Source: a virus (Duplodnaviria > Caudoviricetes). From it: a stretch of DNA of 60,721 bases. Within the stretch, counting starts at the first letter, position 1. Every line of letters begins with the position of its first letter. Of this stretch, positions 10,296 through 40,341 are shown piece after piece. The position numbers and the translations under genes were made by a program. The DNA lies in the IMG/VR virus record IMGVR_UViG_3300042503_002233, positions 1-60,721 of that record; one strand, written 5' to 3'. Under the pieces are notes generated by a model. It was not told the DNA's origin. It did not search any database and saw only the letters and a program-made list of their open reading frames with translations.

Positions 10296-10693
10296 CAGCT
10301 TACATGGTGCGGGCTGCCGTTTCGGGGGCGATTGATTACTCCCGAGCCGATCCCACGGATAATCGCTGGCGCATAAAGCACCGGCTCTCGCTGCTGGAGG
10401 TCCAGCGGCGAGAGGAGCAGAATATGACGGAGCATTTGCACCGTCATTGGTGCGCCTATTTGGCTCACGGGGCTTTGACGGAGGAAAGCTTTGCCAACGT
10501 CAAAGAAAAGGCGGGAGAATCGCTTATTGATCTGCAAGATGCCATTTTCCCGTGGAACGCCAAGCCAAAAGAAGAAGAAAAAGTTAACACGAGCGAAAAG
10601 GAACCAGAAAATAGTAAAATAGACGCGACAAGTCGGCAGATGATCGAGAAGTTTAAGCTTTGGCGTGCCGGAAACACCGGCGATAAAAAATGA
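10277..10693 (+). CDS. Tail assembly chaperone C-terminal extension (T-like), probably made as a frameshift fusion
   Basis: In the -1 frame relative to the upstream ORF; no strong RBS of its own; stop overlaps the tape-measure ATG (ATGA). Confidence 0.6.
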   Translation: MERDRIAAYMVRAAVSGAIDYSRADPTDNRWRIKHRLSLLEVQRREEQNMTEHLHRHWCAYLAHGALTEESFANVKEKAGESLIDLQDAIFPWNAKPKEEEKVNTSEKEPENSKIDATSRQMIEKFKLWRAGNTGDKK

Positions 10694-19112: not shown

Positions 19113-19928
19113 ATGAATAAAAACCAGCAAACAAAAGGAATGCCGTCAATTCTGGGCGACATTACGCCGCCATTTTCGGGGCAGACTCAACACGGGTCGT
19201 CACGCGACTTTGACACGCTTTACCCTGCGTGGCAAACGAGCCAGACGCCGGAACTGAACACAAAAATAATAGGCGCCGTCCAGCCGATCATCGACACGGC
19301 AGTCAGCAGTTACGCTGGAAACGCCGCAAGCCCGACCGTTAGAAACAAAGCAAAGATTATGGCGTTAAAAGCGCTGCAGTCCTACGACCCGAATCGCGGT
19401 AACGTAAAAACGCATTTACTGTCGCAGATGCAGAGTTTGCGGCGGCTGGCAGCGCAAGAGCAAAACATCATTTCTATCCCGGAGCAGGTCGGATTAGATT
19501 TTCAGCGGCTTGGTGCGGCGGAAAACGAGCTTCGCGACAGCCTAAGCCGCGACCCGACAGATGACGAACTCGCGGACATGACCGGGCTTTCTATACGGCG
19601 CATCAAGAAGATACGCAATTTCCATCAACCCGTATCCGAAGGTATGACAGCCCGACGAGACAGCAATAGCGATGACGACACCAACACAGACGTTGCCAGC
19701 ACGCTCCCAAACGCCACGAGCGCGACTGACGCGTGGCTGGACTTTGTATACGGTGATTTGTCGCCAGTAGATAAGCTTGTAATGGATATGACGCTCGGCC
19801 GTAACGGCAGACGCCCGGCAAGTACGCAAGATATAGCACGCCGTTTAAACATAACGTCGGGCGCTGTTAGTCAACGGGCGGCAAAAATTCAAACCATGCT
19901 TGATCAGCGGTACAAACACAATTTTTAA
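19113..19928 (+). CDS. Phage-encoded sigma70-family RNA polymerase sigma factor (divergent, FliA/SigF-like layout)
   Basis: Region 2 'ALKALQSYDPNRG', region 3 'ISIPE...ELRDSLSRDPTDDELADMTGLS..RI', region 4 HTH 'LSPVDKLVM...STQDIARRLNITSGAVSQR'. Confidence 0.85.
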   Translation: MNKNQQTKGMPSILGDITPPFSGQTQHGSSRDFDTLYPAWQTSQTPELNTKIIGAVQPIIDTAVSSYAGNAASPTVRNKAKIMALKALQSYDPNRGNVKTHLLSQMQSLRRLAAQEQNIISIPEQVGLDFQRLGAAENELRDSLSRDPTDDELADMTGLSIRRIKKIRNFHQPVSEGMTARRDSNSDDDTNTDVASTLPNATSATDAWLDFVYGDLSPVDKLVMDMTLGRNGRRPASTQDIARRLNITSGAVSQRAAKIQTMLDQRYKHNF

Positions 19929-20932: not shown

Positions 20933-22582
20933 ATGCCACTTGAAATAACCAGCTTGCGAGAATTGTCGCCGGAGCAGATTGCGGCCGTGACAGCTACGTT
21001 GTCGCAGCTTATGCAGGAGCGCCACCCAGAAGTAGAGCTAAGTCGCGGTGTATTTCACGACTTGGTGCTCTATTTCAATGCCGTTTTAAACGCGGCTGTA
21101 AAAGAAAATATTGATCGCGTCATGCAGAGCAACAGCCTGCTAGCGATTACACAAAATCCGGCGTTAGCTGAAGATGCGCTGGTCGATCAGGTATTGTCAA
21201 ATTTTAACGTTACGCGCGACCCCGGGTCGCGGGCTACCGGCTCCGCTACGTTTGTTTTCTTGCTCGACAGGCAAACTGTAATTCAAAACGACATCGACTT
21301 CTCCGCGAACGACCGGATTTTCCGCGCGGCGAGCACTTACACATTTTTGCCGACGGGTAGTGTGGCCACTAAAACAAATGAACGCGTCTTGCTCGCGGTG
21401 GGTGACGGCACGTATTCCGCGTCGATTCCCATGCTCGCGACAACCGTGGGGGATGCGAGCAACATCCGCCGCGGTACGCCGTTTACCGCAAACGCCAGCC
21501 CCGGTAACGTGTCAGCCGTTTTTGCCACAAGCGATTTTGTTGACGGCAAAGACCCAGCAACAAACGAAATGTATTTGAAAAAGCTGGGCGACGGGCTAAC
21601 GGCAAAGACAATCGGTAGTCGAAAAAGCTATGAGGCGTTTATTCGAAGCTACCCGGAATACAGAAATATTTTGCACTGCTCTGTGCTCGGCTGCGGCGAC
21701 GTCGAGCAGCAGCGCGACCAGCACAGCATTTTCCCGATCTCAGGCGGCGGGAAAGTAGATATTTATCTGCAGACAAATTCGTCTGCGCAAGAAATTGATC
21801 ACACGCTAGAAGCTACGTACGTCGGCGTTAGCGAGGGCGGCACTATTTGGCAGGTTTCTATCCCTAAAAACGCGGCGCCGGGTTTTTACGACATAACCCG
21901 TGTCGCAAAGATTGGCGACTCCACGACCAACGGTTATGCCGTTGTACAAGACCTTCGCAACGTAGACTTGTCTCAAGCGTCGTTCGCTCCTGATATTGTC
22001 CACGTGTACGAGGGCGTGTACAGCCGATATCAGGCCGCCATTATTCGTTTTGAAGACTCCGACACGTTGTCATCTGGTTTGACCGTAAACAAGAGCAAGG
22101 CGCTATACACAGTGACTACACGAGGTATGCCGCTCATCGGAGATATACACGACACGCTCACGGCCCGCGATAATCGGCCGCGGGCTACGGACATTCTTGT
22201 GAAGGCGGCCGTGCCGTGTTTTACTCGGATCGCTTTTGAAGTTCGCACCGAGACAAATGAAATCATCAGCGCAGATAAGCTGCAAGAGATTAAAAAAGCT
22301 GTTGTTACTGCGGTGGCTGAAGTAGGCTTTTCTGGGCAGTTGCACGCCTCGGTTATTGCGAACGCTGCCCATAAGTTTTTAACAGGCCGGCAAGCTGTCG
22401 GGGCGGTTGATATGTTTGGTAAAATCCGGCGGCCAGACGGCACATACGCGTATCTGCGTGACAACACGATGTTAGCCATTCCGAACGACCCCACGCGTCT
22501 AGTCACGGGCCGTACAACGGCTTTTGTTGTGGGCGTCGACGACGTATCTATCTCGTACTCAGCCGCTGGCTTTACGCTCTGA
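20933..22582 (+). CDS. Baseplate J-like (gp6) wedge protein
   Basis: 549 aa; 'GVFHDLVL', 'NFNVTRDPGSRATGSATF', 'FVDGKDPATN', 'GGKVDIY' motifs typical of Baseplate_J. Confidence 0.75.
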   Translation: MPLEITSLRELSPEQIAAVTATLSQLMQERHPEVELSRGVFHDLVLYFNAVLNAAVKENIDRVMQSNSLLAITQNPALAEDALVDQVLSNFNVTRDPGSRATGSATFVFLLDRQTVIQNDIDFSANDRIFRAASTYTFLPTGSVATKTNERVLLAVGDGTYSASIPMLATTVGDASNIRRGTPFTANASPGNVSAVFATSDFVDGKDPATNEMYLKKLGDGLTAKTIGSRKSYEAFIRSYPEYRNILHCSVLGCGDVEQQRDQHSIFPISGGGKVDIYLQTNSSAQEIDHTLEATYVGVSEGGTIWQVSIPKNAAPGFYDITRVAKIGDSTTNGYAVVQDLRNVDLSQASFAPDIVHVYEGVYSRYQAAIIRFEDSDTLSSGLTVNKSKALYTVTTRGMPLIGDIHDTLTARDNRPRATDILVKAAVPCFTRIAFEVRTETNEIISADKLQEIKKAVVTAVAEVGFSGQLHASVIANAAHKFLTGRQAVGAVDMFGKIRRPDGTYAYLRDNTMLAIPNDPTRLVTGRTTAFVVGVDDVSISYSAAGFTL

Positions 22583-27341: not shown

Positions 27342-28283
27342 ATGCCTATTGGAAATTGGAATCTACAGTGGCTCAACCATAACTCGCAGCGGTCATATCC
27401 GCTGACGACGTGGGCAACAAAAGTAGACGTAAAAGAAGCGATTCGGCTTCCAGACAGCTTTATTGTCGCGATGTATCTCCCAATCAGCGCCACGATAAAC
27501 GCAGACACAAGCCGCTTTTTCTTAAAGAACGTCCTAATCAGCCCGACAGGTTTTAACATCACTGTCGGATACTTGAACGCCGAAGGTGACGCGATTGACG
27601 TCGCTGCCGCCAACATTGCGCGCGCGACATACGCGCCGAACAGGGCATATGCGCTCGGCGGTATTGACGAATTTAACGACACTATCGGTCATGTTGTACT
27701 CGGAACTTTAGACGAGATAGATAAGCTCGCGCCCGGATACTATACGTTCGACCTAGCCGGCGGAGCGTTAGAAGCAGACGTTATCAGGCCAAACATTCGT
27801 GGCGTATCCCGGCTGCGCGTAACAAATAACAACCAAAGTAGCGAGTACATTTATGGCGACGTAACGCTCGTCGCGGGCACAAACATTCGCATCAGCGTGG
27901 CGTACACGCCCACCGACACGAAAATAATTTTTGACGCTATCTCAGGCTTGAACTTAAACGCAGACTGTATTTGCCCTACGCCAAAAGAAGGCGAGTGCAT
28001 CCGTTGCATCAACGGCGTCTGCAGCGATAACGGCACGTTCACGCTTATCGCGAACGAGTGCGTTCAGTTGGCTCCGGGAAATAACAGTCTGACTCTCCGT
28101 GATGTGTGCGCGCAACCATGCTGCGGCTGCGCCGAGCTTGACGAGTTAAATACGCAAATTGACCGCTTCAGAGACGGCGTAACGACACTGCAAAACTTCG
28201 TAAGCCGTTTAAGCGCAGAGGTAACACAAATGTCACTCGTCGTGCTTGGAAGCAAGATCGGCGACACCGGCTGCGGCAACTGA
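27342..28283 (+). CDS. Cys-rich virion protein, paralog 1
   Basis: N-terminal 'WLNHNSQRSYPL'; 'IRCINGV..DNG.F.L'; CCGC followed by a coiled coil. Confidence 0.6.
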   Translation: MPIGNWNLQWLNHNSQRSYPLTTWATKVDVKEAIRLPDSFIVAMYLPISATINADTSRFFLKNVLISPTGFNITVGYLNAEGDAIDVAAANIARATYAPNRAYALGGIDEFNDTIGHVVLGTLDEIDKLAPGYYTFDLAGGALEADVIRPNIRGVSRLRVTNNNQSSEYIYGDVTLVAGTNIRISVAYTPTDTKIIFDAISGLNLNADCICPTPKEGECIRCINGVCSDNGTFTLIANECVQLAPGNNSLTLRDVCAQPCCGCAELDELNTQIDRFRDGVTTLQNFVSRLSAEVTQMSLVVLGSKIGDTGCGN

Positions 28284-28291
28284 GGTGAAAC

Positions 28292-29929
28292 ATGGCGCAG
28301 CAAACAACCGCCGATGACAACGCGGGAATCGGCGTCGGCGTCGTGCAGCCGCAAAGCGGATTAGATTATCCTTTTGTTGCGCCGGGGCTGAACGCGAATC
28401 CGACGTATCTGTTAGACGTCAGAGAATTGTTCGCGGATTTCTATTTGTCGTATGACGATCCCGGCTATTACCGGGCAGAACCGGGCGTTGCACACCCGTT
28501 ACGTATTTACTGGCTTTACGGCTTTGGCGATGGCCCCGCATGGTCTGCCGGCGCCCAGCCTATAAGCGACATTAGTATTCCGGCCCCGGAACACGCAAAA
28601 GATTTAATCGTCGTCGATAGCCAAGATAATGTCGTTTTTAACTCCACGCTGGCCGACGAGTACACCGAGACCGTATGGGGCACGCATTACAAGATTTTTG
28701 AGTGGCGCCGCACGTTCAATCCAACGGCAACGACTACGCGGGTAGCCGTGTGCCGCGCAGTTCAGTTTTTGAACCTGCACACAAACACAGCCATTCCCGA
28801 TCGCCCCATCGAGTTCTGCCCGCGAAACGCCGTGCTTGACGAGCGCACGATTGAAAAAATTCCCAAGCGTATTTTGGCGTTGCGTGTGCAAAACGGCAAT
28901 TGCGTTACGCCGTGGTTTAACGAAAAAGTCACGCTGGTGAACGGCCACAACACAGAAATAGACCTCGGTGAGTCTGCGTCGATTTTGACTAACGTTCCCA
29001 CGCTTACAACAAGCTTGCGCGGTAACAACGACATAATGTTTAAGGCCGTTGCCGGTTCTGGTTTTGGGCAGTTTGGACTGTGCGCAACAGGAATTTGCGA
29101 CGACGCGCCGCCGACCAATGTCTGCCCGCCCGGACAAGACCCGGCCGTTAAAATCTGCAAAGACGTCGAGGGAGAAGAAATCAAGTCGCTCAACGGGGTC
29201 GCACCTGACGCGAACGGCAACATAAATCTGAACGCGAACGACTGCCTTTTCGTGCGCAAACCGGCAGCATATACCGCAGATACACCGCATGATTACGCCG
29301 TAGTAAACGGACAAGAAACTCGTTCGGTTATTCACGTCGGAGCCGATTGTCCGCCCTGCTGCGCCTGCGACGATTATTTATCGACGGCACTCTATCTAAA
29401 AGCCGTACGCGACCAGTACGCGGTAATTGGCGAAAGAGTAGGCGCGTCGCAGCAACTTCACGCGCAAAACGTAGCGCGATGGAACGACCAGCGCGTTTGC
29501 CGGACTAAGAGGCCGTTGCGGCTTATTCTCGTGCCACAGCCGTGTCCGTGCATGGACGTCGTGGCTATGTACTGCAATCAGTGCGAAGATTGTTCTGAGA
29601 GCGTGCGCTTAACCATTGTTTTCGACTCCTCTCCGGGCGGCGGATCGGGCACGGTTGACCCGCGTTACACACAGATCGTGGGTAACGATTTCAGCGTGCC
29701 GGCAACGTTGAACGGCGGCTGGCCGGTGTTCTCAGTCGACTTCCCAACCGTTAAATCTGGTGAATCTGTTTACGTCAAGTTTCGATTGTGTTTTTGCCCG
29801 TCTTATCCTTACGCTATACACGGCAGTTTAACTGGGATCAAAAGCACAGGCCCAATCAAAGCTGGCTGTGAACCTGAAGCAGACGCCGCGTTAGCAGAAG
29901 CAAATCAAACTTTAGATTGCGAGCTTTAA
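28292..29929 (+). CDS. Cys-rich virion protein, paralog 2
   Basis: 'LDYPF', 'IKSLNGVAPDANGNINL', 'CPPCCAC' plus coiled coil. Confidence 0.6.
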   Translation: MAQQTTADDNAGIGVGVVQPQSGLDYPFVAPGLNANPTYLLDVRELFADFYLSYDDPGYYRAEPGVAHPLRIYWLYGFGDGPAWSAGAQPISDISIPAPEHAKDLIVVDSQDNVVFNSTLADEYTETVWGTHYKIFEWRRTFNPTATTTRVAVCRAVQFLNLHTNTAIPDRPIEFCPRNAVLDERTIEKIPKRILALRVQNGNCVTPWFNEKVTLVNGHNTEIDLGESASILTNVPTLTTSLRGNNDIMFKAVAGSGFGQFGLCATGICDDAPPTNVCPPGQDPAVKICKDVEGEEIKSLNGVAPDANGNINLNANDCLFVRKPAAYTADTPHDYAVVNGQETRSVIHVGADCPPCCACDDYLSTALYLKAVRDQYAVIGERVGASQQLHAQNVARWNDQRVCRTKRPLRLILVPQPCPCMDVVAMYCNQCEDCSESVRLTIVFDSSPGGGSGTVDPRYTQIVGNDFSVPATLNGGWPVFSVDFPTVKSGESVYVKFRLCFCPSYPYAIHGSLTGIKSTGPIKAGCEPEADAALAEANQTLDCEL

Positions 29930-29930
29930 T

Positions 29931-31538
29931 ATGCCAATTCGCAATCAGAACTGGTACAACCTGCAAGCCACGCGCCGTTATCCGCTCGATGATACATCTA
30001 CCGGCGAGGACGATACTGGCAAAACAATTCGCGACGACATCATCGTCGATTGCCATATTCGCTACCCGTCGACGATTGGCGAGCACCTGTTTGTACAGGC
30101 CATAAACATTACGCCCAATCTTATCACTGTCCTGTTCGGGCTGGCGCAAACGCTGGACGACACAGAGTCCCCGACGGTTGCCACAATTACGGTTGATAAA
30201 CCAGCAGAACGAAACGTCAATTACAGCATTACAGCTTTCGTTCCGGGCATCAGCGGCTGGGTTGCGTTCGGACCGGGCATCGAAACGCCTTTTGTCGGCC
30301 GCTACTCTACGCCCAAACAGACGCTCATCGGAAACAGGAACGCGCGTCCGTATCAGCCGCTCCCAATCCCGACGATCGGCAAGGTGGGACTGCTGGAATC
30401 ACTGCAAGGCATAGTCAATTTAATCGCTGAAAGCCCCGTCACCGCGACATATCACGAAAATTACGTCGTACCCAAGTACGACCCCGAAACAGATCAAATT
30501 AACGAACTTCCAGTTACAGCGATCGTCTTCTCGTCTGACGCGCCCACCGCGCAATTCAATCCGTTGACCTTTTTTCTGCCACCATGCGGACAGCGGCCAG
30601 AAAACGGAACCTGCCCGAAGCCACCGATCGAGCGCATCAACGGCGTAGACCCAGACTGCGACACCGGCAACATTGACATCGTTTTTAACGACGGACTTAC
30701 AGGCCGACCGTTTGCAGAATGCGGCGGTTTAGACATCACAACCGATCTTGGACTGTCTGCGGCGTGCGGCCCAGATAAAAACGACAAAAAAACCGGTAAG
30801 GACGAGTGCCCATGCGAAGAGCCCGACGCGGTAAGTAACTACTGCTGGCCAACTGCGATAGATGACATCTTTGATCCCGCAGCATGCCCGGAAGAACAAT
30901 TTTCTTGCCCGGCGCTTCCATTCTGCGTGTCACTGGCTTACGAGCAAGATGCGCTCAGCGTTACAAACGGCAGTTTTAGCGTCGCCAAGACTGTGGCGCC
31001 GCCGGCCAGTTGCTGCGACGTGGGGGAGCCAGATTTTTCAAATCACGAAGTTTGGGTCGCGTCGAGTGCTGCTGGCCTGAATATAGCGCTCTATCCGGCG
31101 TGCGCCGCCGACTGGGCGTACGACAAGATTATCTCGACTGAGTTCCGATTAAAGACTGGCGGGCTCAAACAAAATGGCGGCGTCGTTTTAAACCATATGC
31201 GCGTGCAAGAAAACGGACGCTGCCGTACAAAATACTACGCAGTGATATTTGACGGCAGCGCGGCAGAGTTGCAACTTTACCGTTTTGACGGCGCATTGCT
31301 TATTAAAGAGAACAAAGTATCCGTACCGAACGTTGTCGGAAATTGGTACAAAATATCGGCTTTTGCTACCGAAAGCAGCGGGTCATCGACAATCTCTGGC
31401 ACGCTTTACGACATGACTACCGGCGAGATCGTGGCCACGCTCACTACAAACACACCAGACTATGAAATGGTAAATGGGCGCGCCGGCATTATCACAAACT
31501 CGGCCATAACGCAATTTAATCGCTTCGAGATAACCTGA
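29931..31538 (+). CDS. Cys-rich virion protein, paralog 3, with C-terminal beta-sandwich (lectin-like?)
   Basis: 'WYNLQATRRYPL', 'IERINGVDPDCDTGNIDI'; C-terminal 'GNWYKIS...GRAGI...FNRFEI'. Confidence 0.6.
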   Translation: MPIRNQNWYNLQATRRYPLDDTSTGEDDTGKTIRDDIIVDCHIRYPSTIGEHLFVQAINITPNLITVLFGLAQTLDDTESPTVATITVDKPAERNVNYSITAFVPGISGWVAFGPGIETPFVGRYSTPKQTLIGNRNARPYQPLPIPTIGKVGLLESLQGIVNLIAESPVTATYHENYVVPKYDPETDQINELPVTAIVFSSDAPTAQFNPLTFFLPPCGQRPENGTCPKPPIERINGVDPDCDTGNIDIVFNDGLTGRPFAECGGLDITTDLGLSAACGPDKNDKKTGKDECPCEEPDAVSNYCWPTAIDDIFDPAACPEEQFSCPALPFCVSLAYEQDALSVTNGSFSVAKTVAPPASCCDVGEPDFSNHEVWVASSAAGLNIALYPACAADWAYDKIISTEFRLKTGGLKQNGGVVLNHMRVQENGRCRTKYYAVIFDGSAAELQLYRFDGALLIKENKVSVPNVVGNWYKISAFATESSGSSTISGTLYDMTTGEIVATLTTNTPDYEMVNGRAGIITNSAITQFNRFEIT

Positions 31539-32329
31539 TGACCGACGCCGCACGTATTCTATTCCCGGACTTTCGCGAAGAGCAGCGCGACTCTCGGTAT
31601 CCGTTCGTCGACACAGCAAACCTGCTGGCGACAGATGGTCTAACGGCCATCCAGCGCGACACGTTTATCGACGCCGTATTTCACATTATTGGCGCGGGCA
31701 ATCGTGTTTACATCTCGTCTGTAAAAATTGAGTCACAAAAAGTAACGATTACCCTCGGCGACGAAACGACAGACGCCGTAGCCGCGGCAACATTCGCTCC
31801 AAGCCCCATTGCCGCAACCGCGTCGGGCGGGCTAGCAATTTACGACTTGCTTGGACGACCCGCCGGCACGTTAGTGGCGACAAAAGACAACTTGTCGTTA
31901 TTTACAGGTTGGTCAATCGGCACCTACGAGTTTACGCGTGAAGCAACAGAGTTTGTATCGACCACGGTAATCCCGACAAGAGAGCCCGGCGTCCGTGGGT
32001 TGAGCCCAGCCACAAAAGAACTCATCACCGGCGACGTATGGTTAATTGGCGACGGCGGCGTCACATTTCGATACGGTGGCGTGCAAGACGGAAAACAGAT
32101 CATCCGCGTCGACGTCACGGGCGTGCCGCTTTCAAATCGGTTTTTGTGCGTGCCGTATGAGCGGTTTCAATCAAAAAACTTTGTGCGCACAATTAACGGC
32201 TGTCCCCCCGACGAATATGGCAACTTTACAATTACCGCGACCGGTCATGAGATCGACGACACTGTGTTGCGGGTCACACAAGCTGACGGCATAATTTTTA
32301 TAGACGCTGTCGGAAGAAAGGTGGTGTGA
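31538..32329 (+). CDS. Virion protein, paralog 4
   Basis: 'FREEQRDSRYPF', 'TGDVWLIG', 'VRTINGCPPDEYGNFTI'. Confidence 0.6.
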   Translation: MTDAARILFPDFREEQRDSRYPFVDTANLLATDGLTAIQRDTFIDAVFHIIGAGNRVYISSVKIESQKVTITLGDETTDAVAAATFAPSPIAATASGGLAIYDLLGRPAGTLVATKDNLSLFTGWSIGTYEFTREATEFVSTTVIPTREPGVRGLSPATKELITGDVWLIGDGGVTFRYGGVQDGKQIIRVDVTGVPLSNRFLCVPYERFQSKNFVRTINGCPPDEYGNFTITATGHEIDDTVLRVTQADGIIFIDAVGRKVV

Positions 32330-32330
32330 T

Positions 32331-33281
32331 ATGCCTCGCCCGGGTTTTTACAACGACAATGAATACCGCGCGTACCCGTTTATTTTCAAAGCCGGTGCGG
32401 TGGCCCTTCCTTACTCAACCGTGGTGGACTGCGGAATTATCATGGGCCTCGACAGCGAATTTGATGGTGAAGTTCATGAAGTGTGGCTGCAGCAAATCAA
32501 ACGCCTAAACAACACATTTGAATTCGAGTTTGCCACGAACGCCCCGGGAGCCGCGCAAAAGCCGCTGGTGTTCCAACGCGACGTCGATACAGCGGAGTGG
32601 CTGATGGAAGACGCCGAGTCCGAGCCATATGTTAAAGACGTCAATAGCTGCGCGACCGAGCCCGCGTGGTCCGGGTTTCTAGTTACGGGCCCGCTGAAAG
32701 ATTTAGAAGCCGCGCTGCCGAACGACGGAACAATCACTCTCGGGACGGCTTACACACTGGAGCCAGCACGTATTCAAAGCCTTGTTCGAAGCTATTTAAG
32801 AGCAGTCTCGCTTGGAAATTTTTCTCGGCCGCGGGCAAGATCGGCGTGCGACAATTCACCCGGCACGCCGCGACATGTTGTAATAAACAAACGATGCATT
32901 GCGGGAGATATTAGATTTAAAGAGGGCTACAACGCGCAAATTCGACAACGCGTACTTACAAACGAGATCGTCATTTCCGCTGGCCGCGGCTTTGGGGCGC
33001 AGTACGACGCAGAACTGTGCCAGAACCACGGGGAGATTCCATTTTACGACGGAGAGCAAAAGCCCATTTTGTTCCCCGCGGCGGATGGACGGCCAGAGGT
33101 ACGGAGCAAATTTTTTAGCGGCGGCCCAGCGTGTGACGAACTTGTGTCGTCTATAAACGGAGTAACCGGACCAGATGTTACAATCGTCGGCGGCACTGGC
33201 ATCAACGTGCGCGTCGATCAGGACAATCCAAATACCATACTCGTGACCCTGTCGACGACCAACATCGCCGGCAACTGTTAA
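32331..33281 (+). CDS. Virion protein, paralog 5
   Basis: '[12 protein letters not shown]', '[10 protein letters not shown]', '[14 protein letters not shown]'. Confidence 0.6.
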
Positions 33282-33292
33282 CAGGTCGTGCG

Positions 33293-36200
33293 ATGACAGA
33301 TTTTTTCTTCAAAAACAACAAGTGCGGTATCGCAAACAAGGTCGAGAAGTCGGACTTCAAGTTCGTCTTTGACTGCGACATCGTACCGACGCCGCCGCCG
33401 ATTTTTGACTGCCCGCCGCCGATCGTGCCGCGCGAACCTGAAATTCCGTGCCCTGTATTCGACGTCAAATCGAAACTGCAGGTCGGTTACGCCGATGGGG
33501 CTGATAGAGACGTCGATAACTGCGACGTCAAAGAGAACAAAATCAAGTTTGAGATCAGCAAGCGCGTGTTTGACGGCTGCCCCGCGCCAAACGACTGCGA
33601 ATTTGATGTTGACCTCGAAATTGATATCGCCTTTCCTGCGCCCCCGTGTCCTGACCTGAAAGTCAACACGTTCAGCGTTAAAAGCGGCTTTGCCGATCAG
33701 CCGTGCGCGCAAGAAGAAAGCAAATTTAGCATCCGCACAAAAAAGATTCCGGGAAAGGACTGCAATGATCCCGGCTCGTGCGAGTTCGAATTCGACCTTG
33801 AAATCAACGTCCCTATTCCGCGCGCGCCGTGCCCGAAAATCAACGTTAGGACATTTAACGTCAGCAGCGGCGACCCAACCCGGTGCGGCGTCGGGAGAAA
33901 CCGATTTGAGATTACGCCAAATCATCGGCCGGGTACAAATTGCGACGACCCGGGCGAGTGCAACTTTGACGTAGACCTCGAAATACACATCCCAATTCCG
34001 CGTCCACCATGCCCGGAAATAAAAATAAATGTTTTTGACGTCAAGTCCGGTTATGAAACAGCCGACTGCAGCGGTGAAAACAAATTTGAGATTCGGCGCA
34101 TTATCGAAGAGCCGCCGTGCGACGATCCGTTCAAACAGTTTAAGTGCGACTTTGAAGTCGACCTGCGGATATTTATTCCGATTCCGCAGCCGCCATGCCC
34201 TGAGATCAACATCAAAACTTTCTCGGTCAAAAGCGGGTACGCCGGTTCTGACTGCGCAAACGGAAGAAACCACTTTGAAATCACGACGAGAAAAATTCCG
34301 GGAGATTGTACGAACCCGGACAAATGCGAGTTTGACGTCAGTCTAGAGATTAATATCCCGCTGCCGCCAATCGTATGCCCGACAATTGTCATAAAAACGT
34401 TTAAAGTAACAAGCGACTACGCTGATCAATGTGCGCCCGGCCGAAACCGATTTGCGATCACAACGCGGCACGTCGAGCCAGAAAACTGCACGGACTCGGC
34501 GCCGGAGTGTAATTTTGACGTCGAGCTTGAGATTGACGTGCCGATCCCTCGGCCGCCGTGTCCTGAGATCAAAGTCAAGACATTTGAAGTGACGACCGGT
34601 TACAAGCTAGACAACTGCGCGCGGGGCGAGAACAAGTTCATCATCACGCGGCGAACGGAAAAAGCCCCGTGCGGCGACGATAAAAAAATTCAGGACGTGT
34701 GCGAGTTCGACATCGAACTCTCGATTGACGTTCCGATTCCAGTACCACCGTGCCCTGAATTAAACGTCAAAAAATTTGAAGTCAAGACCGCCTACAAGTT
34801 AGACGACTGCGAGCAGGGCGAAAACGTATTCAAAATTACAAAACGCATCACGCCCCCAACATGCGACGATGCGCCGCAATGCGAATTTGATTTTGAGCTC
34901 ACAATCAACGTCCCGATTCCCGTGCCGCCATGCCCGGATATCGACGTCAAGACGTTCAAAGTAAAGGTCGGCTACGCCGACACAGATTGCGCGCAAGGCG
35001 AAAACAAGTTTGTCATAAAAAAGACGGCCACGCCGCCAAGCTGCGACGGCTCGACAGCGGGCGATTGCAAGTTTGATGTTGAGCTTGAGATCAACGTCCC
35101 GATTCCAGTGCCGCCATGTCCCGAGATCAACGTCGGAACTTTTAAGGTCAAAAGCGGTTATGCACGTTGCATTAGCGGCTCAAACAAATTTACTGTCAGA
35201 AAGAAAGACATCCCCTCCGTACCAAATTGCGACAACCCCGAGCCGCCCAAATGTGAATTTGAAATAGACCTTGAGATCAACGTTCCTATTCCCGAGCCGC
35301 CGTGCCCAGAGATCAACGTTAGCTCGTTCAGTGTCAACTACATAGAGTACGCCGGCACGCAAGGACCGCCGAGCGTGGGCGGTTGCAATCAATTCGTAAT
35401 CAATAAGCGCGAAACGCCACCGTCATGCGACGGCGGAGGCGGAAATTGCGAATTCGATATTGACCTGCAACTGTGCATCCCGGTGCCCAGAATAAAATGC
35501 CCCGTATTTGTCACCCGCTTTAAAGTCGAAAGCGGCTACTCTGATTGCGTCAGCGGTAATAACGTTTTTGAGATCACAGGTAGCGACAACAACGGCGAGT
35601 GCGTATTTGACGTCAACCTAGAAATATCTATTCCAATACCCAAGCCGCCGTGCCCAGTCGTTCGGACAAATCTGGTGCTCGGGACGTTCCTGTCAAATTG
35701 CGGCAAAGGCGGCGGTGTATTTGACGTCTCAACTGAAATTATTCCGGGCGGCTGCGGCGCGCCAGACGCGTGTTTCTTCGACTTCAATCTTGAACTCTAC
35801 ATACCCATCCCAAAATTTGTAGAAGACGTTGTTTTTGCGGCGCCCAATCCAAAACTCGACGTCAGGTGGTGCGAACCAAACTTCGCTGGTGGTTTACTCC
35901 ATCCGCGCGTTTCATTCGTCAAAATGGCTTTTATAAGGAAAGCCGATATTTGGGCGAACGCGTGCGATCACGGACAACGCATTGCATACGACGTCGATTT
36001 TCAACTGGATATCGTACTGCCGCCTCTCCCGTGCAGTTATTTTAAACTCAGCCCCAAGAAGCCAGAGTTCCCTGTCCGCCGCGTTAAAGAGAACAAAGAA
36101 TATCTGAAACTGTCTGTTGTTCCAAAGCCGTCTATTAACTGCAACCCGTGCGAATACGAATTTGATATCGACATTCAACTGCGCTGCACGCCCTGCCCGG

Positions 36201-37852
36201 TTTTTCACAACAATCCGGCCAAGATAGACTTCATCCTGCCCACAGACCCGCCGCGAGGTAAAGTAGAAATTGCTGCGAGACCGAAAGCAGACTGCGAGTA
36301 TCCATGCGAATATGACGTCAATTTTGAGTTGTATCTGCCAAAGCCGTGCGTACCGAAATTCAACGTCCTGCCGCCGAGAGTCAATCCGTGTATTTACAGT
36401 GATGCCGCGACGTGGGAAACCTGCCGTCCCGAGGACAGCGAGTACATTAATCTCACTATTACGCCGTCCATCTCCGGCAACGCGTGCGAATACGACGTCG
36501 AAATCTATACCAAGCCGCCGTGGTATGTGCCGCGAGAAGTGGAGTGCGACGAGTTTGATACCTCATACGGCATTAAGGTTCAATACACAGAAGAAGACCC
36601 GCCACCAGACGGAACGTTAACAATTACGCCACGGGCGTTTGATCCGCTGATCGACAAACACTGTACGTACGATGTCGAAGCTGACATATACGTATCTACT
36701 AGGGGCTGCATTCCTAGCTTCAAAGTCCTCCCGACAAAACTTAATCCATGCTACTACAGCGATGCGAGTACGTTTGAAACTTGTAACCCCGAAGATGACG
36801 AGTTCATCACGCTTTCTATCACGCAACCGGACCCGGCAAAATGTAAATACGAAATCGAAGTTTACGCTAAGCCGGCGATCTACAGGCCAGAAAACAGAGT
36901 TTGCGACACGTTCGACACGTCGTACGGCATCAAGGTTCAGTACACATCAGAAGACCCGCCGCCAGCAGGCACGTTAACAATTACCGCACGGTCATTTGAT
37001 CCGCTCGTGGATAAGGCTTGCACATACGATGTCGAGGCGGACGTATACGTTCCTACGCCCGCCTGCCCGGAAATTTGGTACTCGCCGGGTAGTTTCCGCC
37101 TCGTGCCTGTTCCGATAAAGGACTGGAGCGCAAAGTACGAAACTCTCGATATAGAGTTCCTCCCTGAAATTAGTGAGGGTAAATGCCGCATCGAAATTGT
37201 TGGCGACATTAACGTACCCATCACGCGACTGACGTGCGATAAATTTGAAACTGCTGGCGCAGTCAAAATTAACGAAACGGACAGCGCCCCGTCGGGAACA
37301 CTCGCGATCACAGCGCGGGCGCTAGAATCAGGCGCCGAAAGCTGCACGTACGATGTCAGCCTTGAATTAAATCTTAACAAGAGCGGCGCAACAGGCCCGA
37401 CAGGGCCTACCGGGCCTTCTGGCGCAACAGGCCCCACTGGCCCCGGTACGACTGGACCAACTGGACCGACAGGTCCTTCTGGGGCAACAGGCCCGACTGG
37501 GCCTACCGGGCCTAGCGGTCCAACCGGCCCGTCCGGTCCCACTGGTCCCCGCGGCGCAACCGGCCCCACTGGCGCCGGTACGACTGGACCAACTGGATCG
37601 ACAGGCGCCACCGGTCCTTCTGGCGCTACCGGACCATCGGGACTACGCGGCGCTACAGGCCCTCAAGGCCCACAGGGCGCAACAGGGCCACAAGGCATAA
37701 CGGGCATTACAGGCGCTACAGGGCCAGTCGGGCCAACGATTACTAGCGTTGTTGGTTCAGTTTCATTTGGCGCGACTAACTCGTTAACCGGCTCATTCAA
37801 TAACGGCGTGCTCACGCTGAACCTCACACTTGCGACAACTACATGCCCATAA
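33293..37852 (+). CDS. Giant Cys/Pro-rich repeat protein with C-terminal collagen-like domain (putative long fiber/appendage)
   Basis: 1519 aa; ~13 well-conserved plus ~9 degenerate ~55-65-aa units (CPxIxVxxFxVxSGY..C..GxNxFxI......C....CxFDxxLxIxxPIPxPP), then G-x-T triplets. Confidence 0.8.
37385..37740 (+). repeat. Collagen-like (Gly-X-Y)n coding repeat
   Basis: GAT/GPT/GPS triplets with a couple of interruptions; synonymous codons vary. Confidence 0.9.
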
Positions 37853-37949
37853 AGTAATCGTTAAATAAGCAACAGCGTTCAAACCGCGCTAAAAAAATAT
37901 ACAATAGATGCTACGCTGGGCAGCATTACTTTCAACAATTGAGCGAACT

Positions 37950-39074
37950 ATGGCCGACGACACCGAAAGAAAAGACAGCGACGACCCGATGTCGCCAAAT
38001 TACGCGCCAAAACCAAACGAAGAGTTTGTAATACTGTCGGCCGCCGAAGACCCAACTCCATTAGGGCAATCGGAGATACTGCAGGAAAAAATACCTTTTG
38101 ATACTGTCGAAATACCGCTCGAAAACGGGTCAAACACATGGACCTTCTCCGGCGGTTCCAGTCCGTCCTCGTTCACGCTGCCCTCAACTACCGGCACGGT
38201 CGGCCCGCAAGGTCCACAGGGCGCAACGGGCGTTACAGGCGTAGCCGGCGCTACAGGCTCCACGGGCCCCCGCGGCGCGACTGGCATTACTGGCGCTTCA
38301 GGCGCGTCCGGCGCAACTGGCGCGACCGGAGCAACCGGGGCCACGGGCGCCACAGGTCCTCGTGGGCCTACTGGACCCACAGGCCCACTGGGCCCCACAG
38401 GCCCTACAGGGCCGCGTGGGCCTACCGGCGCTACTGGGCCGACCGGGGCCACGGGACCAACCGGACCACTAGGCCCCACAGGCTCTACGGGCCCTACAGG
38501 GGCTACGGGACCCACAGGCCCAACAGGACCAATTGGCCCGACTGGGCCTAGCGGGCCCACAGGACCTAGCGGACCGACAGGCCCGACAGGGCCGCGTGGA
38601 CCTACCGGGGCTACCGGTTTAACAGGTCCGATTGGGCCAACGGGAATAACAGGTCCAAGCGGCCCTACAGGACCAACAGGGCCGACCGGCCCATCCGGCC
38701 CGCGAGGCCCCACAGGTCCCACCGGAGCGACAGGGCCGACCGGAGCGCTCGGCCCCACGGGACCTACGGGCGCAACCGGGCCGTCTGGCCCAACCGGTCC
38801 AATAGGCCCGACAGGGCCTTCGGGGCCGAGAGGCGCTACTGGCCCCGCAGGCGTTATCGGCACAATGGGGCCAGCGGGTCCTGCCGGGCCTATAGGGCCG
38901 TCTGGCGTTTGCGGCCCTCGCGGCGCCACCGGAATGACCGGGCCAACCGGACCTATGGGCGTTGCGGCAATCACGCCGCAGTTCATCGACGACCTAATCG
39001 TGGCTGTTTACTCAAACGCAGCCCTTCGCACCGCAATCGTCGCCGTGGCGAATGGCGCAACTGGGCCGACGTAG
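37950..39074 (+). CDS. Collagen-like triple-helix protein
   Basis: ATG at 37950; long continuous G-P-T/G-A-T/G-P-S tract (~38190-38960) between a short acidic N-terminus and a hydrophobic helical C-terminus. Confidence 0.85.
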
Positions 39075-39113: not shown

Positions 39114-39497
39114 ATGGGCACGACAAGTCGGTTTTCAATCAGCCGCGACACACTGATTCGCCACGCATTTGAAGACAACTTTTTTGTCAAGGTGCCTGAG
39201 TTAATCGCCTTCAAAGAGATGTTTGCAAATTGCAAAGAAACGTACAAGAAAGAACTTGAACAAAAAGGTTGTACGTGCCGCATGACGACAGAGTGGGCGA
39301 AACCATGTGTGCTGCCAATGATGGAGCAAGTCGAGGCGGCTAAGAAAACAAATCACGCGCTCGTTAGAAATTTTATTCGCTGTATCGGGCGCTACAGCGA
39401 AGACGCCGATGTTGACCACGTCGGCGTCAGCATTATTTACGACAAGACATATGACATTTTTGTAGACACCGCGGCGCCAGAAGAAAAGGCTGATTAA
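39114..39497 (+). CDS. Hypothetical protein (Cys-containing)
   Basis: 127-aa ORF with GAGG RBS. Confidence 0.6.
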   Translation: MGTTSRFSISRDTLIRHAFEDNFFVKVPELIAFKEMFANCKETYKKELEQKGCTCRMTTEWAKPCVLPMMEQVEAAKKTNHALVRNFIRCIGRYSEDADVDHVGVSIIYDKTYDIFVDTAAPEEKAD

Positions 39498-39498
39498 G

Positions 39499-40341
39499 AT
39501 GCCAACATTTAGCCCAACGTACTCAAAACTTTTTCACGGCAACCGGCCATTTGTATTAGCCAACGGAAAAGATGCGGCTGCCGTCAAAATCAGATTGCGA
39601 GACGCAGATAACAATCCGATTGCCGCGAGGCAGGTCGAGCTAGTCGCGGACGGGCAAAATGTCATCGTCAGCCAGCCCGCGCTAACACAGCCTGACGGCA
39701 CAACGATCGGATACATCGTCGCGACAACACCGGGCGTCGTGTCTATACGGGCGCGCACGCTTGTATCAAATATGGGCACGATGATCGACGAACGCGAACT
39801 ATCGTCGCCTGAAGCGCTACAAAAGCTGATGAACTCCACCGCGGGAGCGGAGTGGTTTGACGAGCCGATTACTGTCACCTTCTTTTCCCGCGATATCGAA
39901 CCAAGTTTACCGATCGAGGCGACGCCGAGAAACATTCGACTGGAGTGGGCGGTCAGCCGGTACGACATTAACGACATTGACGGCATCCGCGTGCGCATAA
40001 CAGCGACACAAGCCAACAACATGCCGACAAAAATCTTTGCGTACCAAATGCTGCCAGTAAGACCGGGCGGCACGCAACAGGTCGCGACATTTGACCACGT
40101 GTGTTCGTCGGTGGATTTAGAAGAGTACCCAGAAGATCAGGCGCTTCCTAACAGTCGGCCCGCGTGGTTTCGTTTAAACTACGTGGACGTCATGGTGCGC
40201 TCGCGAGATGAGACTCGTGAATTTATCAACAGCGTGCTTGAAGACGTACAACTGCTGAAAAACACACTGGACATCACTGACGATTTACTCCCCGGCGGCA
40301 ACGCATGGATTGGTACGCCGCCGGAAATAACTATTCCATAA
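39499..40341 (+). CDS. Protein with N-terminal Ig-like (Big_1/invasin-type) domain
   Basis: 'ANGKDAAAVKIRLRDADNNPIA...V.L.......T..DG.......TTPGVVSIRA' matches the Big_1 pattern. Confidence 0.7.
   Translation: MPTFSPTYSKLFHGNRPFVLANGKDAAAVKIRLRDADNNPIAARQVELVADGQNVIVSQPALTQPDGTTIGYIVATTPGVVSIRARTLVSNMGTMIDERELSSPEALQKLMNSTAGAEWFDEPITVTFFSRDIEPSLPIEATPRNIRLEWAVSRYDINDIDGIRVRITATQANNMPTKIFAYQMLPVRPGGTQQVATFDHVCSSVDLEEYPEDQALPNSRPAWFRLNYVDVMVRSRDETREFINSVLEDVQLLKNTLDITDDLLPGGNAWIGTPPEITIP

What the first reader, a model, noticed from the sequence alone, without database searches (positions are those of the whole stretch)
33293..37384. Unrecognised ~60-aa four-Cys repeat, about 20 copies, fused to collagen
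The unit consensus is CPxIxVxxFxVxSGY-x-C-xx-GxNxFxI-x-C-x-CxFDxxLxIxxPIPxPP. It has three alternating-pattern beta strands, a variable Cys-bounded loop and a polyproline linker. About 13 copies are clear and about 9 are degenerate (seen). The C-terminal collagen implies trimerisation, so each unit may form an intertwined trimeric beta module, giving a beads-on-a-string fiber (inference). Copies differ at the DNA level, so the expansion is old.
Basis: partly seen in the sequence, partly recalled or inferred. Interest (0 to 1): 0.8.

Follow-up and report, generated by a model that had tools for sequence, protein, structure and literature searches.

The report
Disulfide-stapled repeat shaft, phage tail fibre
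A large uncultured phage encodes a long tail-fibre protein whose shaft is built from 22 copies of an uncatalogued 60-residue, cysteine-bearing beta-strand repeat that probably assembles as a three-chain rod braced by disulfide bonds running from each unit to the next, and ends in a collagen helix.

Summary
ORF 33293..37852 (+, 1519 aa) holds 13 strong and 9 weak copies of a ~60-aa four-Cys unit, followed by a collagen tract.

No library recognises the unit. Pfam, PHROGs and NCBIfam match only the collagen, and PDB sequence and fold searches find nothing.

A unit profile finds only 100 cluster representatives among 1.84 billion proteins. All are unnamed metagenomic proteins. In 5 of 5 fetched loci the gene sits at the same position in the baseplate/tail module of ~200-kb phages.

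A three-copy model of three units passes its controls: ipSAE 0.65 against a best control of 0.01. Strand 3 of one chain pairs with strand 1 of the next chain.

The new result concerns cysteine pairing across 857 units. C1 and C4 are effectively invariant. C2 of unit n is lost together with C3 of unit n+1: table [[615,0],[14,38]]. This indicates a staple between consecutive units, so the shaft is a braced rod and not loose beads.

The scan noted the same family before on another genome (e1-5390989).

Verdict: a real, uncatalogued fibre repeat, best classed as a new variant of a known kind. The disulfides and the trimer are inferred, not shown.

The parts
33293..33448 (+). N-terminal anchor, aa 1-52, the best-conserved part of the protein
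   Evidence: 80 family members match it, and the top hits listed are 67-79% identical over residues 1-52 aligned 1:1, which also confirms the start codon. It is not a unit: 350 of 500 shuffles reach its HMM score.
33449..35809 (+). 13 canonical ~60-aa four-Cys units, aa 53-839
   Evidence: Unit HMM independent E 1e-19 to 2e-31. Alignment A1 has 47% mean column identity. AF2 shows three strands per unit.
35303..35650 (+). Units 11-12 (aa 671-786), a rewired junction. Canonical C2 is replaced by a shifted Cys (C698) plus a new Cys at the end of strand 3 (C728), and unit 12 lacks C3.
   Evidence: The same rewiring is seen in 10 junctions of the family. Shifted C2* against the column-53 Cys gives table [[16,9],[5,637]].
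35810..37381 (+). 9 divergent units, aa 840-1363. They include a tandem duplication of a two-unit block (aa 1014-1251) and four two-Cys units that keep only C1 and C4.
37382..37741 (+). Collagen-like Gly-X-Y tract, aa 1364-1483 (~40 triplets)
   Evidence: Pfam PF01391, E 2.4e-13. All 22 PHROG hits fall within aa 1342-1515. TRF finds arrays of period 9 to 132 nt here.
37742..37852 (+). Short C-terminal tail (aa 1484-1519) and stop codon
   Evidence: It lacks the C-terminal motif that ends the fibre protein in the 5 relatives.
37908..39074 (+). Downstream short collagen-like gene (388 aa), the conserved partner gene of the fibre gene
   Evidence: Pfam Collagen, E 1.3e-39. A 217-410 aa collagen gene follows the fibre gene in 5 of 5 relatives. 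Its C-terminal end matches the extreme C-terminus of 6 longer family members.
32331..33281 (+). Conserved upstream gene (316 aa) whose stop lies 12 nt before the fibre start. It is a possible attachment partner of unknown fold.
   Evidence: Syntenic in 5 of 5 loci. It has 352 homologues, all unnamed. No fold match was found.
20933..22582 (+). Baseplate_J / baseplate wedge gene, which marks the tail module
   Evidence: Pfam PF04865, E 1e-6. phrog_6 baseplate wedge, E 1.7e-14.

Best explanation
The gene encodes the long tail fibre of an uncultured ~200-kb myovirus.

A conserved 52-residue N-terminus docks it to the baseplate periphery (inferred). The shaft is 22 tandem units of ~60 residues, each contributing three beta strands. 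Three chains run in parallel and in register. In each unit, strand 3 of one chain pairs in parallel with strand 1 of the neighbouring chain, which closes a three-sided beta prism (modelled).

The invariant C1 and C4 lie at this chain-chain seam. They probably form a disulfide there, possibly between chains (inferred). C2, in the loop at the top of unit n, bonds C3, in the loop at the bottom of unit n+1, and so staples successive units together (supported by covariation). The Pro-rich linker stays inside the interface.

The result is a stiff, covalently braced rod. A rough estimate is 90-120 nm for the shaft plus ~34 nm for the collagen triple helix (inferred from residue counts). The rod holds a small, variable distal end away from the baseplate for host recognition. 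Changes in unit number (4-26 in relatives) set the fibre length.
For: Tail-module context:
- Sheath-like gene at 2221-5778, Baseplate_J at 20933-22582, and same-strand tight packing.
- Identical gene order in 5 of 5 related loci from 76-205-kb viral contigs.
- The N-terminus is 67-79% identical in the top hits, against ~25-50% for the repeats.
- One relative (P0030) carries a pectate-lyase-like domain after its collagen.

Family architecture:
- Collagen lies after the last unit in 44 of 44 members that have a run of at least 8 Gly-X-Y triplets.

Fold:
- Three strands of 9-15 residues per unit.
- The monomer model has only medium confidence (pLDDT 66.5) and matches no solved chain, as expected if the fold is completed by other chains.

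Trimer:
- ipSAE 0.65, 0.70 and 0.65 in three runs, against a best control of 0.01.
- Partner pLDDT of at least 72, and the runs agree in at least 72% of their contacts.
- The tool's calibration: the mark was reached by 20 of 30 proteins solved as pairs of one chain and by 1 of 23 solved as single chains. These counts hold only roughly here, because my own alignment and three copies were used.
- No similar complex is solved, so the pass is unlikely to come from memory.

Cysteines:
- C1 and C4 are effectively invariant in 857 units from 111 proteins.
- In the model they lie in the interface in 3 of 3 units each, while C2 and C3 do so in 0 of 3 each.
- Canonical C2(n) against C3(n+1) gives table [[615,0],[14,38]].
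- The reverse neighbour, C2(n+1) against C3(n), has odds ratio 1.6 (p 0.28). The same-unit pair has odds ratio 3.9.
- The 28 junctions lacking any Cys in both zones lie in 20 proteins, and I count at least 7 sequence-distinct kinds.
- A compensating alternative pair exists: shifted C2* with a Cys at column 53, table [[16,9],[5,637]].
- Two-Cys units keeping only C1 and C4 occur in P0080 and in window units 18, 20, 21 and 22.
Against: - No coordinates were available, so no S-S distance was measured. The C1-C4 partner, and whether either bond is within or between chains, is open.
- C1 and C4 never vary, so covariation cannot test their pairing.
- The units are related to each other, so the Fisher p-values overstate independence. 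The argument rests on the contrast with the reverse-neighbour control and on the number of distinct events.
- The complex score is a model's own confidence. My own shallow alignment of paralogous tiles (51 rows) and three copies lie outside the tool's calibration.
- Phage virions assemble in a reducing cytoplasm. No Erv1-type oxidase (0 of 5, but the tool's control genomes also gave no signal) or DsbA (0 of 5) was found in the related phage records. When and how the disulfides form is therefore unexplained.
- No virion proteomics or cultured relative exists. The closest terminase in cultured phages is 28-32% identical, and PHROG 'tail fibre' hits rest on collagen alone.
- The upstream neighbour could not be identified by fold.
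Confidence: 0.6

Rival explanations
1. The units are independently folded monomeric small beta domains (Ig-, PKD- or EGF-like beads) with two disulfides inside each domain. Only the collagen trimerises, and three bead strings hang side by side.
For: - The monomer AF2 model already shows the three strands.
- The weakest profile hits (E 1e-4 to 1e-8) are PKD/Ig/HYR proteins.
- Tandem Ig-like beads are common in phage fibres (general knowledge, recalled).
Against: - Three strands per 60 residues do not make a closed domain.
- The trimer model gives 392-447 inter-chain contacts with controls at 0.01 or below.
- Cys covariation runs between units, not within them: odds ratio ~249 for C2(n)/C3(n+1) against 3.9 for the same-unit pair.
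- The linker is in the interface.
Confidence: 0.15
2. The cysteines are metal ligands and not disulfides. For example, C1 and C4 from three chains could bind ions along the fibre, as histidines bind iron or zinc in T4 gp37 and gp12 (recalled).
For: - C1 and C4 are invariant and lie at the chain-chain interface.
- Virions assemble in the reducing cytoplasm, and no dedicated oxidase was found.
- Metal-stapled trimeric fibres are known (recalled, not tested here).
Against: - C2 and C3 are lost strictly in pairs across a junction and are replaced by a new pair. This is the signature of pairwise bonds, not of a four-ligand site.
- Two-Cys units remain viable.
- No His, Asp or Glu column is conserved next to the Cys beyond the strand pattern (consensus).
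Confidence: 0.1
3. The protein is a virion appendage other than the tail fibre, such as a head or neck fibre or a whisker, or it is a non-virion adhesin.
For: - No family library names the non-collagen part.
- Collagen-like proteins also decorate heads in some phages: phrog_38766, a 'virion structural protein' in the head and packaging category, is among the collagen hits.
Against: - The gene lies 10.7 kb downstream of Baseplate_J in an unbroken same-strand block that is syntenic in 5 of 5 relatives.
- It has a conserved N-terminus with a variable distal part, and one relative carries a pectate-lyase-like distal domain.
Confidence: 0.12

Closest known systems
Collagen-like phage tail fibres (PHROG families 6320, 5073, 819, 8745; Pfam PF01391)
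   Same: It has a Gly-X-Y tract of ~40 triplets near the C-terminus, which matches these families at E 2.5e-34 to 1.9e-16. It also sits in a tail module.
   Different: All matches are confined to aa 1342-1515. The 1363 residues before the collagen, including all 22 units, match none of them.
Trimeric beta-structured fibre shafts: adenovirus/reovirus triple beta-spiral, T4 gp5/gp12 triple beta-helix, and the T4 gp34/gp37 repeated fibrous domains (recalled from the literature, not fetched here)
   Same: These are also three parallel chains whose short strands interdigitate into a rod made of tandem repeats. That is the same working principle as the trimer model here.
   Different: The unit here is ~60 residues with three long strands and four Cys. 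As I recall them, the known repeats are ~15 residues (beta-spiral) or ~8 residues per turn (beta-helix) and lack cysteines. The unit profile has no PDB sequence match at E up to 10. Foldseek and VIA-align found no fold match for the monomer model. A weak or missing match does not prove that the fold is new.
Disulfide-cross-linked protein fibres such as Bacillus endospore appendages (Ena, Pfam PF13157; mechanism recalled)
   Same: The idea is shared: subunits or units of a beta-rich fibre are covalently chained by disulfides between successive elements.
   Different: In Ena the bonds link separate subunits of a helical pilus. Here they would link tandem units within, or between, three continuous chains. 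The PF13157 hit on relative P0063 has 0 stretches passing on their own, and I read it as a repeat artefact. P0001 itself has no such hit.
Earlier scan note e1-5390989 (another genome, a 205-kb uncultured phage)
   Same: It describes the same architecture: an undescribed 60-residue repeat shaft, a ladder of disulfides, and a collagen fusion.
   Different: It concerns different DNA. No look-alike was found by shared words. It is an AI note and not a publication. I derived the pairing rule and ran the trimer test with controls here independently.

Membership tests
Collagen triple-helix repeat (Pfam PF01391) | Uninterrupted Gly-X-Y triplets scoring above the Pfam gathering score | tested here: met
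   50 bits against a cut-off of 27.2, E 2.4e-13, aa ~1364-1483. It covers only 8% of the protein.
Any curated protein repeat or domain family (Pfam-A, PHROGs v4, NCBIfam 20) for the 60-aa unit | A significant profile match within aa 1-1363 | tested here: not met
   Pfam at E up to 1 gives only Collagen, plus ERGIC_N at E 0.054 (14.1 bits, below its cut-off of 27). All 22 PHROG hits lie in aa 1342-1515. NCBIfam matches only collagen adhesin models, all far below their cut-offs. Of 23 family members scanned, 15 have no Pfam family at all.
Phage tail fibre (functional class) | Encoded in the tail/baseplate module with conserved position | tested here: met
   It lies downstream of the sheath-like and Baseplate_J genes. 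Gene order is identical in 5 of 5 related loci.
Phage tail fibre (functional class) | Conserved N-terminal attachment part with a variable shaft and distal part | tested here: met
   The N-terminal 52 aa are 67-79% identical in the top hits, with 80 members matching. The repeats are 25-50% identical and number 4-26 units. Distal ends differ, and P0030 has a pectate-lyase-like domain.
Phage tail fibre (functional class) | Homotrimeric assembly | tested here: inconclusive
   The three-copy model scores 0.65 against a best control of 0.01, and collagen is present. Both are predictions, and nothing has been measured.
Phage tail fibre (functional class) | Presence in the virion at the baseplate | not testable with these tools
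   There is no cultured relative. The best terminase match in 50,697 phage records is 32% identical, and the fibre itself has no tblastn match there.
Triple beta-spiral / triple beta-helix fibre folds | Characteristic short repeat period (~15 or ~8 residues; recalled) | tested here: not met
   The period here is a median of 61 residues (5-95% range 54-67), with three strands of 9-15 residues.
Triple beta-spiral / triple beta-helix fibre folds | Structural similarity to solved members | tested here: inconclusive
Ig-like / PKD beta-sandwich repeats | A closed two-sheet sandwich domain of ~80-100 residues matching Ig or PKD profiles | tested here: inconclusive
   P0001 has no Ig or PKD Pfam hit, and no Ig chain appears above noise in the fold searches. 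A few PKD/Ig proteins appear at the very bottom of the profile search, at E 1e-8 to 1e-3.

The most novel reading that the evidence does not exclude
The shaft is a previously unseen trimeric beta-prism fold in which every one of ~22 levels is covalently locked twice. The invariant C1-C4 pair would bond between neighbouring chains, and the C2(n)-C3(n+1) pair would bond between successive levels. The whole ~100-nm rod would then be one continuous disulfide ladder. Because it is built in a reducing cytoplasm without a phage oxidase, the ladder would close only after lysis, so the fibre would stiffen or mature on release into oxic water.
Probability: 0.3. Interest if true: 0.75.

Novelty: new variant of a known kind. 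Interest (0 to 1): 0.6.

Why it matters
Trimeric phage fibres are the main determinants of host range, yet only a handful of shaft architectures are known structurally. This is a rare, lineage-restricted shaft module: 100 cluster representatives among 1.84 billion proteins. It is missing from Pfam, PHROGs, NCBIfam and the PDB.

The sequence-derived rule for how its cysteines pair can be tested directly by disulfide mapping or by one crystal or cryo-EM structure. If the ladder is real, it would be a natural design for a stiff, covalently braced protein rod whose length is set by unit number. That is of interest for fibre engineering. It also bears on the question of how cytoplasmically assembled virions acquire disulfides.

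The unit deserves a family model so that these 1,000-2,500-residue 'hypothetical proteins' of ~200-kb environmental phages get annotated.

Tried and rejected
- Locus searches with P0001 and A1: the search for related loci with P0001 in viral contigs confirmed no relative. With alignment A1 it failed because no stretch was conserved enough. Loci were obtained through homologues P0013 and P0009 instead.
- GenBank phages: tblastn of the fibre against 50,697 records gave no match.
- ESM Atlas: the first call did not complete. The second gave no usable hit and holds no model.
- BFVD fold search: 0 matches at E of 0.001 or below.
- Positional orthology: best hits of window units to units of L009, L011 and L012 do not follow position, so no 1:1 orthology can be claimed.
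- N-terminal partial unit (aa 1-52): rejected, because 350 of 500 shuffles reach its score.
- Apparent loss of C1 in 17-18 units: rejected as an alignment artefact. The Cys lies one residue upstream, or the sequence is a truncated fragment.
- Pfam hits on P0063 and P0080 (Enas, Anti-TRAP, Bc2l-C_N and others): I read these as artefacts of summing weak repeated hits, since 0 stretches pass on their own.
- Phage redox genes in 5 related records: Erv1/ALR in 0 of 5, but the control genomes also gave no signal, so this is uninformative. DsbA in 0 of 5. Thioredoxin in 3 of 5 (3 of 3 near-complete records), but this is a common phage gene and no evidence of a dedicated system.
- Host hint: the genome-contig scan with A3 returned one 3.9-kb contig of an unclassified MAG, which gives no host information.
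- Coordinates: none are laid in the script box, so Cys-Cys distances could not be measured.
- Script errors: three scripts failed on my own errors and were corrected.
- Literature: three full-text searches (listings and abstract starts only) found no paper on such a repeat. No paper was read.
Full report
**What is there.** The window is a whole IMG/VR virus record of 60,721 bases, estimated ~30% complete. Its relatives are 198-205-kb records, one with direct terminal repeats.

ORF 33293..37852 (+) encodes 1519 residues with 81 cysteines. At 5.3% Cys it is the most cysteine-rich ORF in the window.

An HMM built from the visible units finds 13 full copies between residues 53 and 841 (independent E 1e-19 to 2e-31). 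It also finds nine partial matches between residues 881 and 1360 (E 8e-4 to 0.23). Segmenting at the conserved third-strand motif gives 22 units.

The nine weak units are real homologues. Each beats its own shuffles, with 0-5 of 500 reaching the observed score. BLAST aligns residues 1014-1363 to canonical arrays of other family members at E 1e-6 to 1e-10. Residues 1014-1251 are a tandem duplication of a two-unit block.

Residues ~1364-1483 are collagen (Pfam E 2.4e-13). A supposed partial unit at the extreme N-terminus is not supported.

The units are old. TRF sees no array with a ~180-nt period. Pairwise nucleotide identity averages 54% (maximum 65%), and third codon positions are 38% identical.

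**Is the unit known?** No library recognises it.
- Pfam at E up to 1 gives only Collagen and a sub-threshold ERGIC_N.
- All 22 PHROG hits lie within residues 1342-1515.
- NCBIfam gives only collagen adhesin models, far below their cut-offs.
- A unit profile finds 0 PDB sequences at E up to 10.
- tblastn against 50,697 GenBank phage records finds nothing.
- Three full-text literature searches found no description; I saw listings and abstract starts only.

The scan itself noted what appears to be the same family before on another genome. Note e1-5390989 describes a 205-kb uncultured phage with an 'undescribed 60-residue repeat' and an 'interlocking ladder of disulfide bonds'. It is an unchecked AI note, and no look-alike stretch was found by shared words.

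**Family and context.** The word-indexed search with residues 53-840 returns 65 proteins at 25-50% identity. All are unnamed, and many lie on contigs of ~190-213 kb.

The exhaustive profile search over 1,835,955,588 representatives finds 100 proteins at E of 1e-3 or below, 76 at 1e-10 or below, and 57 at 1e-30 or below. The family is rare. The last few hits are PKD/Ig/HYR proteins and probably chance.

Members carry 4-26 unit matches. The unit length has a median of 61 residues. In 44 of 44 members with a run of at least 8 Gly-X-Y triplets, all collagen lies after the last unit.

The N-terminal 52 residues are the best-conserved part: 67-79% identical in the top hits, with 80 members matching.

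The gene lies in a same-strand block downstream of a sheath-like gene and Baseplate_J. The nine flanking genes compared are in the same order in 5 of 5 related loci. A shorter collagen gene follows the fibre gene in 5 of 5 relatives, as it does in the window at 37908-39074. One relative has a pectate-lyase-like domain after its collagen.

These are the hallmarks of a tail fibre: fixed position in the baseplate module, a conserved anchor, and a variable shaft and tip. There is no cultured relative. The best terminase match is 32% identical.

**Fold.** AF2 on units 7-9, with a 51-row alignment of three-unit tiles from the window and four relatives, gives pLDDT 66.5 and pTM 0.49. It shows three strands of 9-15 residues per unit.

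This monomer model matches nothing:
- Foldseek against PDB: best E 0.04, TM 0.13.
- BFVD: best E 8.5e-3.

A missing match does not prove novelty. It does fit a fold that is only completed by other chains.

**Trimer.** Three copies of the same segment give ipSAE 0.65, 0.70 and 0.65, against a best control of 0.01. There are 392-447 contacts, partner pLDDT is at least 72, and the runs agree in at least 72% of contacts.

By the tool's calibration, the mark was reached by 20 of 30 proteins solved as pairs of one chain and by 1 of 23 solved as single chains. These counts hold only roughly here, because my own alignment and three copies were used.

The best-defined contacts run in parallel register between strand 3 of one chain and strand 1 of the next. 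Alternate residues of strand 2 and the whole Pro-rich linker are also in the interface. It argues for a continuous rod and against beads on a flexible string. It remains a model's confidence and not a measurement.

**Cysteine pairing (new here).** No coordinates are available, so I used natural variation in 857 full units from 111 proteins.

C1 and C4 are effectively invariant. The 17-18 apparent C1 losses are cases where the Cys lies one residue upstream, or truncated fragments. C2 and C3 are present in 84% and 89% of units.

Their losses are coupled across the junction, not within the unit:

| Pair compared | Table | Result |
|---|---|---|
| C2(n) vs C3(n+1) | [[622,10],[7,28]] | odds ratio ~249 |
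| C2(n+1) vs C3(n), reverse neighbour | [[568,39],[54,6]] | odds ratio 1.6 (p 0.28) |
| C2(n) vs C3(n), same unit | [[594,38],[28,7]] | odds ratio 3.9 |
| Canonical C2(n) vs C3(n+1), strict C2 zone | [[615,0],[14,38]] | no junction has canonical C2(n) without C3(n+1) |

The 28 junctions lacking any Cys in both zones lie in 20 proteins, and I count at least 7 sequence-distinct kinds.

Ten of the 17 initially 'discordant' junctions are rewired. The C2 is shifted toward strand 2, and a new Cys appears at the end of strand 3 of the same unit: table [[16,9],[5,637]]. The window's own units 11-12 are an example (C698, C728, and no C3 in unit 12).

One relative (P0080) and window units 18, 20, 21 and 22 keep only C1 and C4.

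Both signals fit the strand topology. The loop after strand 1 (C2) is at the top of unit n. The loop before strand 3 (C3) is at the bottom of unit n+1. The start of strand 2 and the end of strand 3 are neighbours at the top of a unit.

In the trimer model, C1 and C4 are in the chain-chain interface in 3 of 3 units each, and C2 and C3 in 0 of 3 each. C4 of one chain touches the two residues that follow C1 of the next chain.

I therefore infer two independent bond systems. One is a dispensable inter-unit staple, C2(n)-C3(n+1), which is well supported. The other is an indispensable C1-C4 bond at the seam, possibly between chains, which is compatible with the model but untested.

There are caveats. 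The units are related, so the p-values overstate independence. The contrast with the reverse-neighbour control, which shares that relatedness, carries the argument.

Pairwise co-loss and pairwise replacement argue for disulfides and against a four-ligand metal site. Metal binding by C1 and C4 is not excluded.

**Open problem.** Virions assemble in a reducing cytoplasm. In five related records I found no Erv1-type oxidase, although the control genomes also gave no signal, so that test is uninformative. I found no DsbA. A thioredoxin is present in the three near-complete genomes, but that is a common phage gene.

The genes around the fibre are also cysteine-rich, at 3.0-4.0% against 0-2.6% elsewhere. 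Oxidation after lysis is the simplest guess (inference).

**Dimensions (inference).** With 17 residues from C4 to the next C1, the rise is at most ~5.4 nm per unit. That gives roughly 90-120 nm for 22 units, plus ~34 nm for 40 collagen triplets.

**Verdict.** This is a real, rare, uncatalogued repeat that forms the shaft of a collagen-tipped tail fibre in an uncultured lineage of ~200-kb myoviruses. It is probably a disulfide-braced trimeric beta rod. It is a new variant of a known kind (trimeric phage fibre shafts) and not a new kind of system. The fold may be new, but that needs a structure.

Noticed in passing
window 27342-28283, 29931-31538, 31538-32329, 32331-33281 (possibly also 28292-29929): Four (perhaps five) consecutive genes upstream of the fibre share an N-terminal [RS]-Y-P-[LF] motif around residues 13-22. 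This may be a common baseplate-docking segment of paralogous peripheral baseplate or fibre proteins. None has a Pfam, PHROG or NCBIfam match.
   Followed up: partly
window 27342-31538 and 39114-39497: The fibre's neighbours are also cysteine-rich: 3.5%, 4.0% and 3.0% for the three upstream ORFs, and 3.9% for the conserved 127-aa downstream ORF with 5 Cys. The other ORFs in the window have 0-2.6%. The whole distal baseplate block may be disulfide-bonded.
   Followed up: partly
window 10690-15708: A 1672-aa ORF has no cysteine and 17% alanine. It lies in the stretch with the strongest AT skew of the window (0.23-0.27) and has no family match. It may be a tape-measure or internal virion protein.
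   Followed up: partly
window 19113-19928: A sigma-70-like gene (regions 3 and 4; Pfam E 1e-7 and 3e-5) sits inside the tail structural block, just upstream of the baseplate genes.
   Followed up: no
window 2221-5778: A very large (1185 aa) sheath-like protein has only weak sheath matches at residues ~970-1110. It also has an inserted domain (residues ~390-650) that matches head-decoration and Ig-like virion protein PHROGs.
   Followed up: no
window 37908-39074; L009 14562-15791, L010 14515-15417, L011 14530-15435, L012 14325-15305, L029 14067-14717: A short collagen gene always follows the fibre gene. In the five relatives, both proteins end in the same ~25-residue C-terminal motif (L..LIA.LQTN..LR.A). 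In the window only the short gene has a motif-like end. This may be a shared trimerisation or registration module, or a sign of a two-protein fibre.
   Followed up: partly
P0080 (1481 aa, metagenomic relative): This family variant has ~51-residue units that keep only C1 and C4, repeated nearly identically many times. It is a natural 'minimal' form of the unit.
   Followed up: partly
P0030 (1963 aa relative), residues 1321-1517: A pectate-lyase-like / rhamnogalacturonase-like domain (PF12708, E 6e-18) follows the collagen. In this relative the fibre tip is probably a polysaccharide depolymerase.
   Followed up: no
L030 (G001:50483-50731), L031 (G002:103999-104247), L032 (G003:134934-135170): Each of the three near-complete ~200-kb relatives encodes one thioredoxin-family protein (E 1e-11 to 5e-9), and none has a DsbA.
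   Followed up: no
window 39499-40341: A 280-aa protein has a bacterial Ig-like Big_1 / invasin D3 domain at its N-terminus (E 1.7e-10). Its C-terminal half is 62-67% identical in all five relatives.
   Followed up: no
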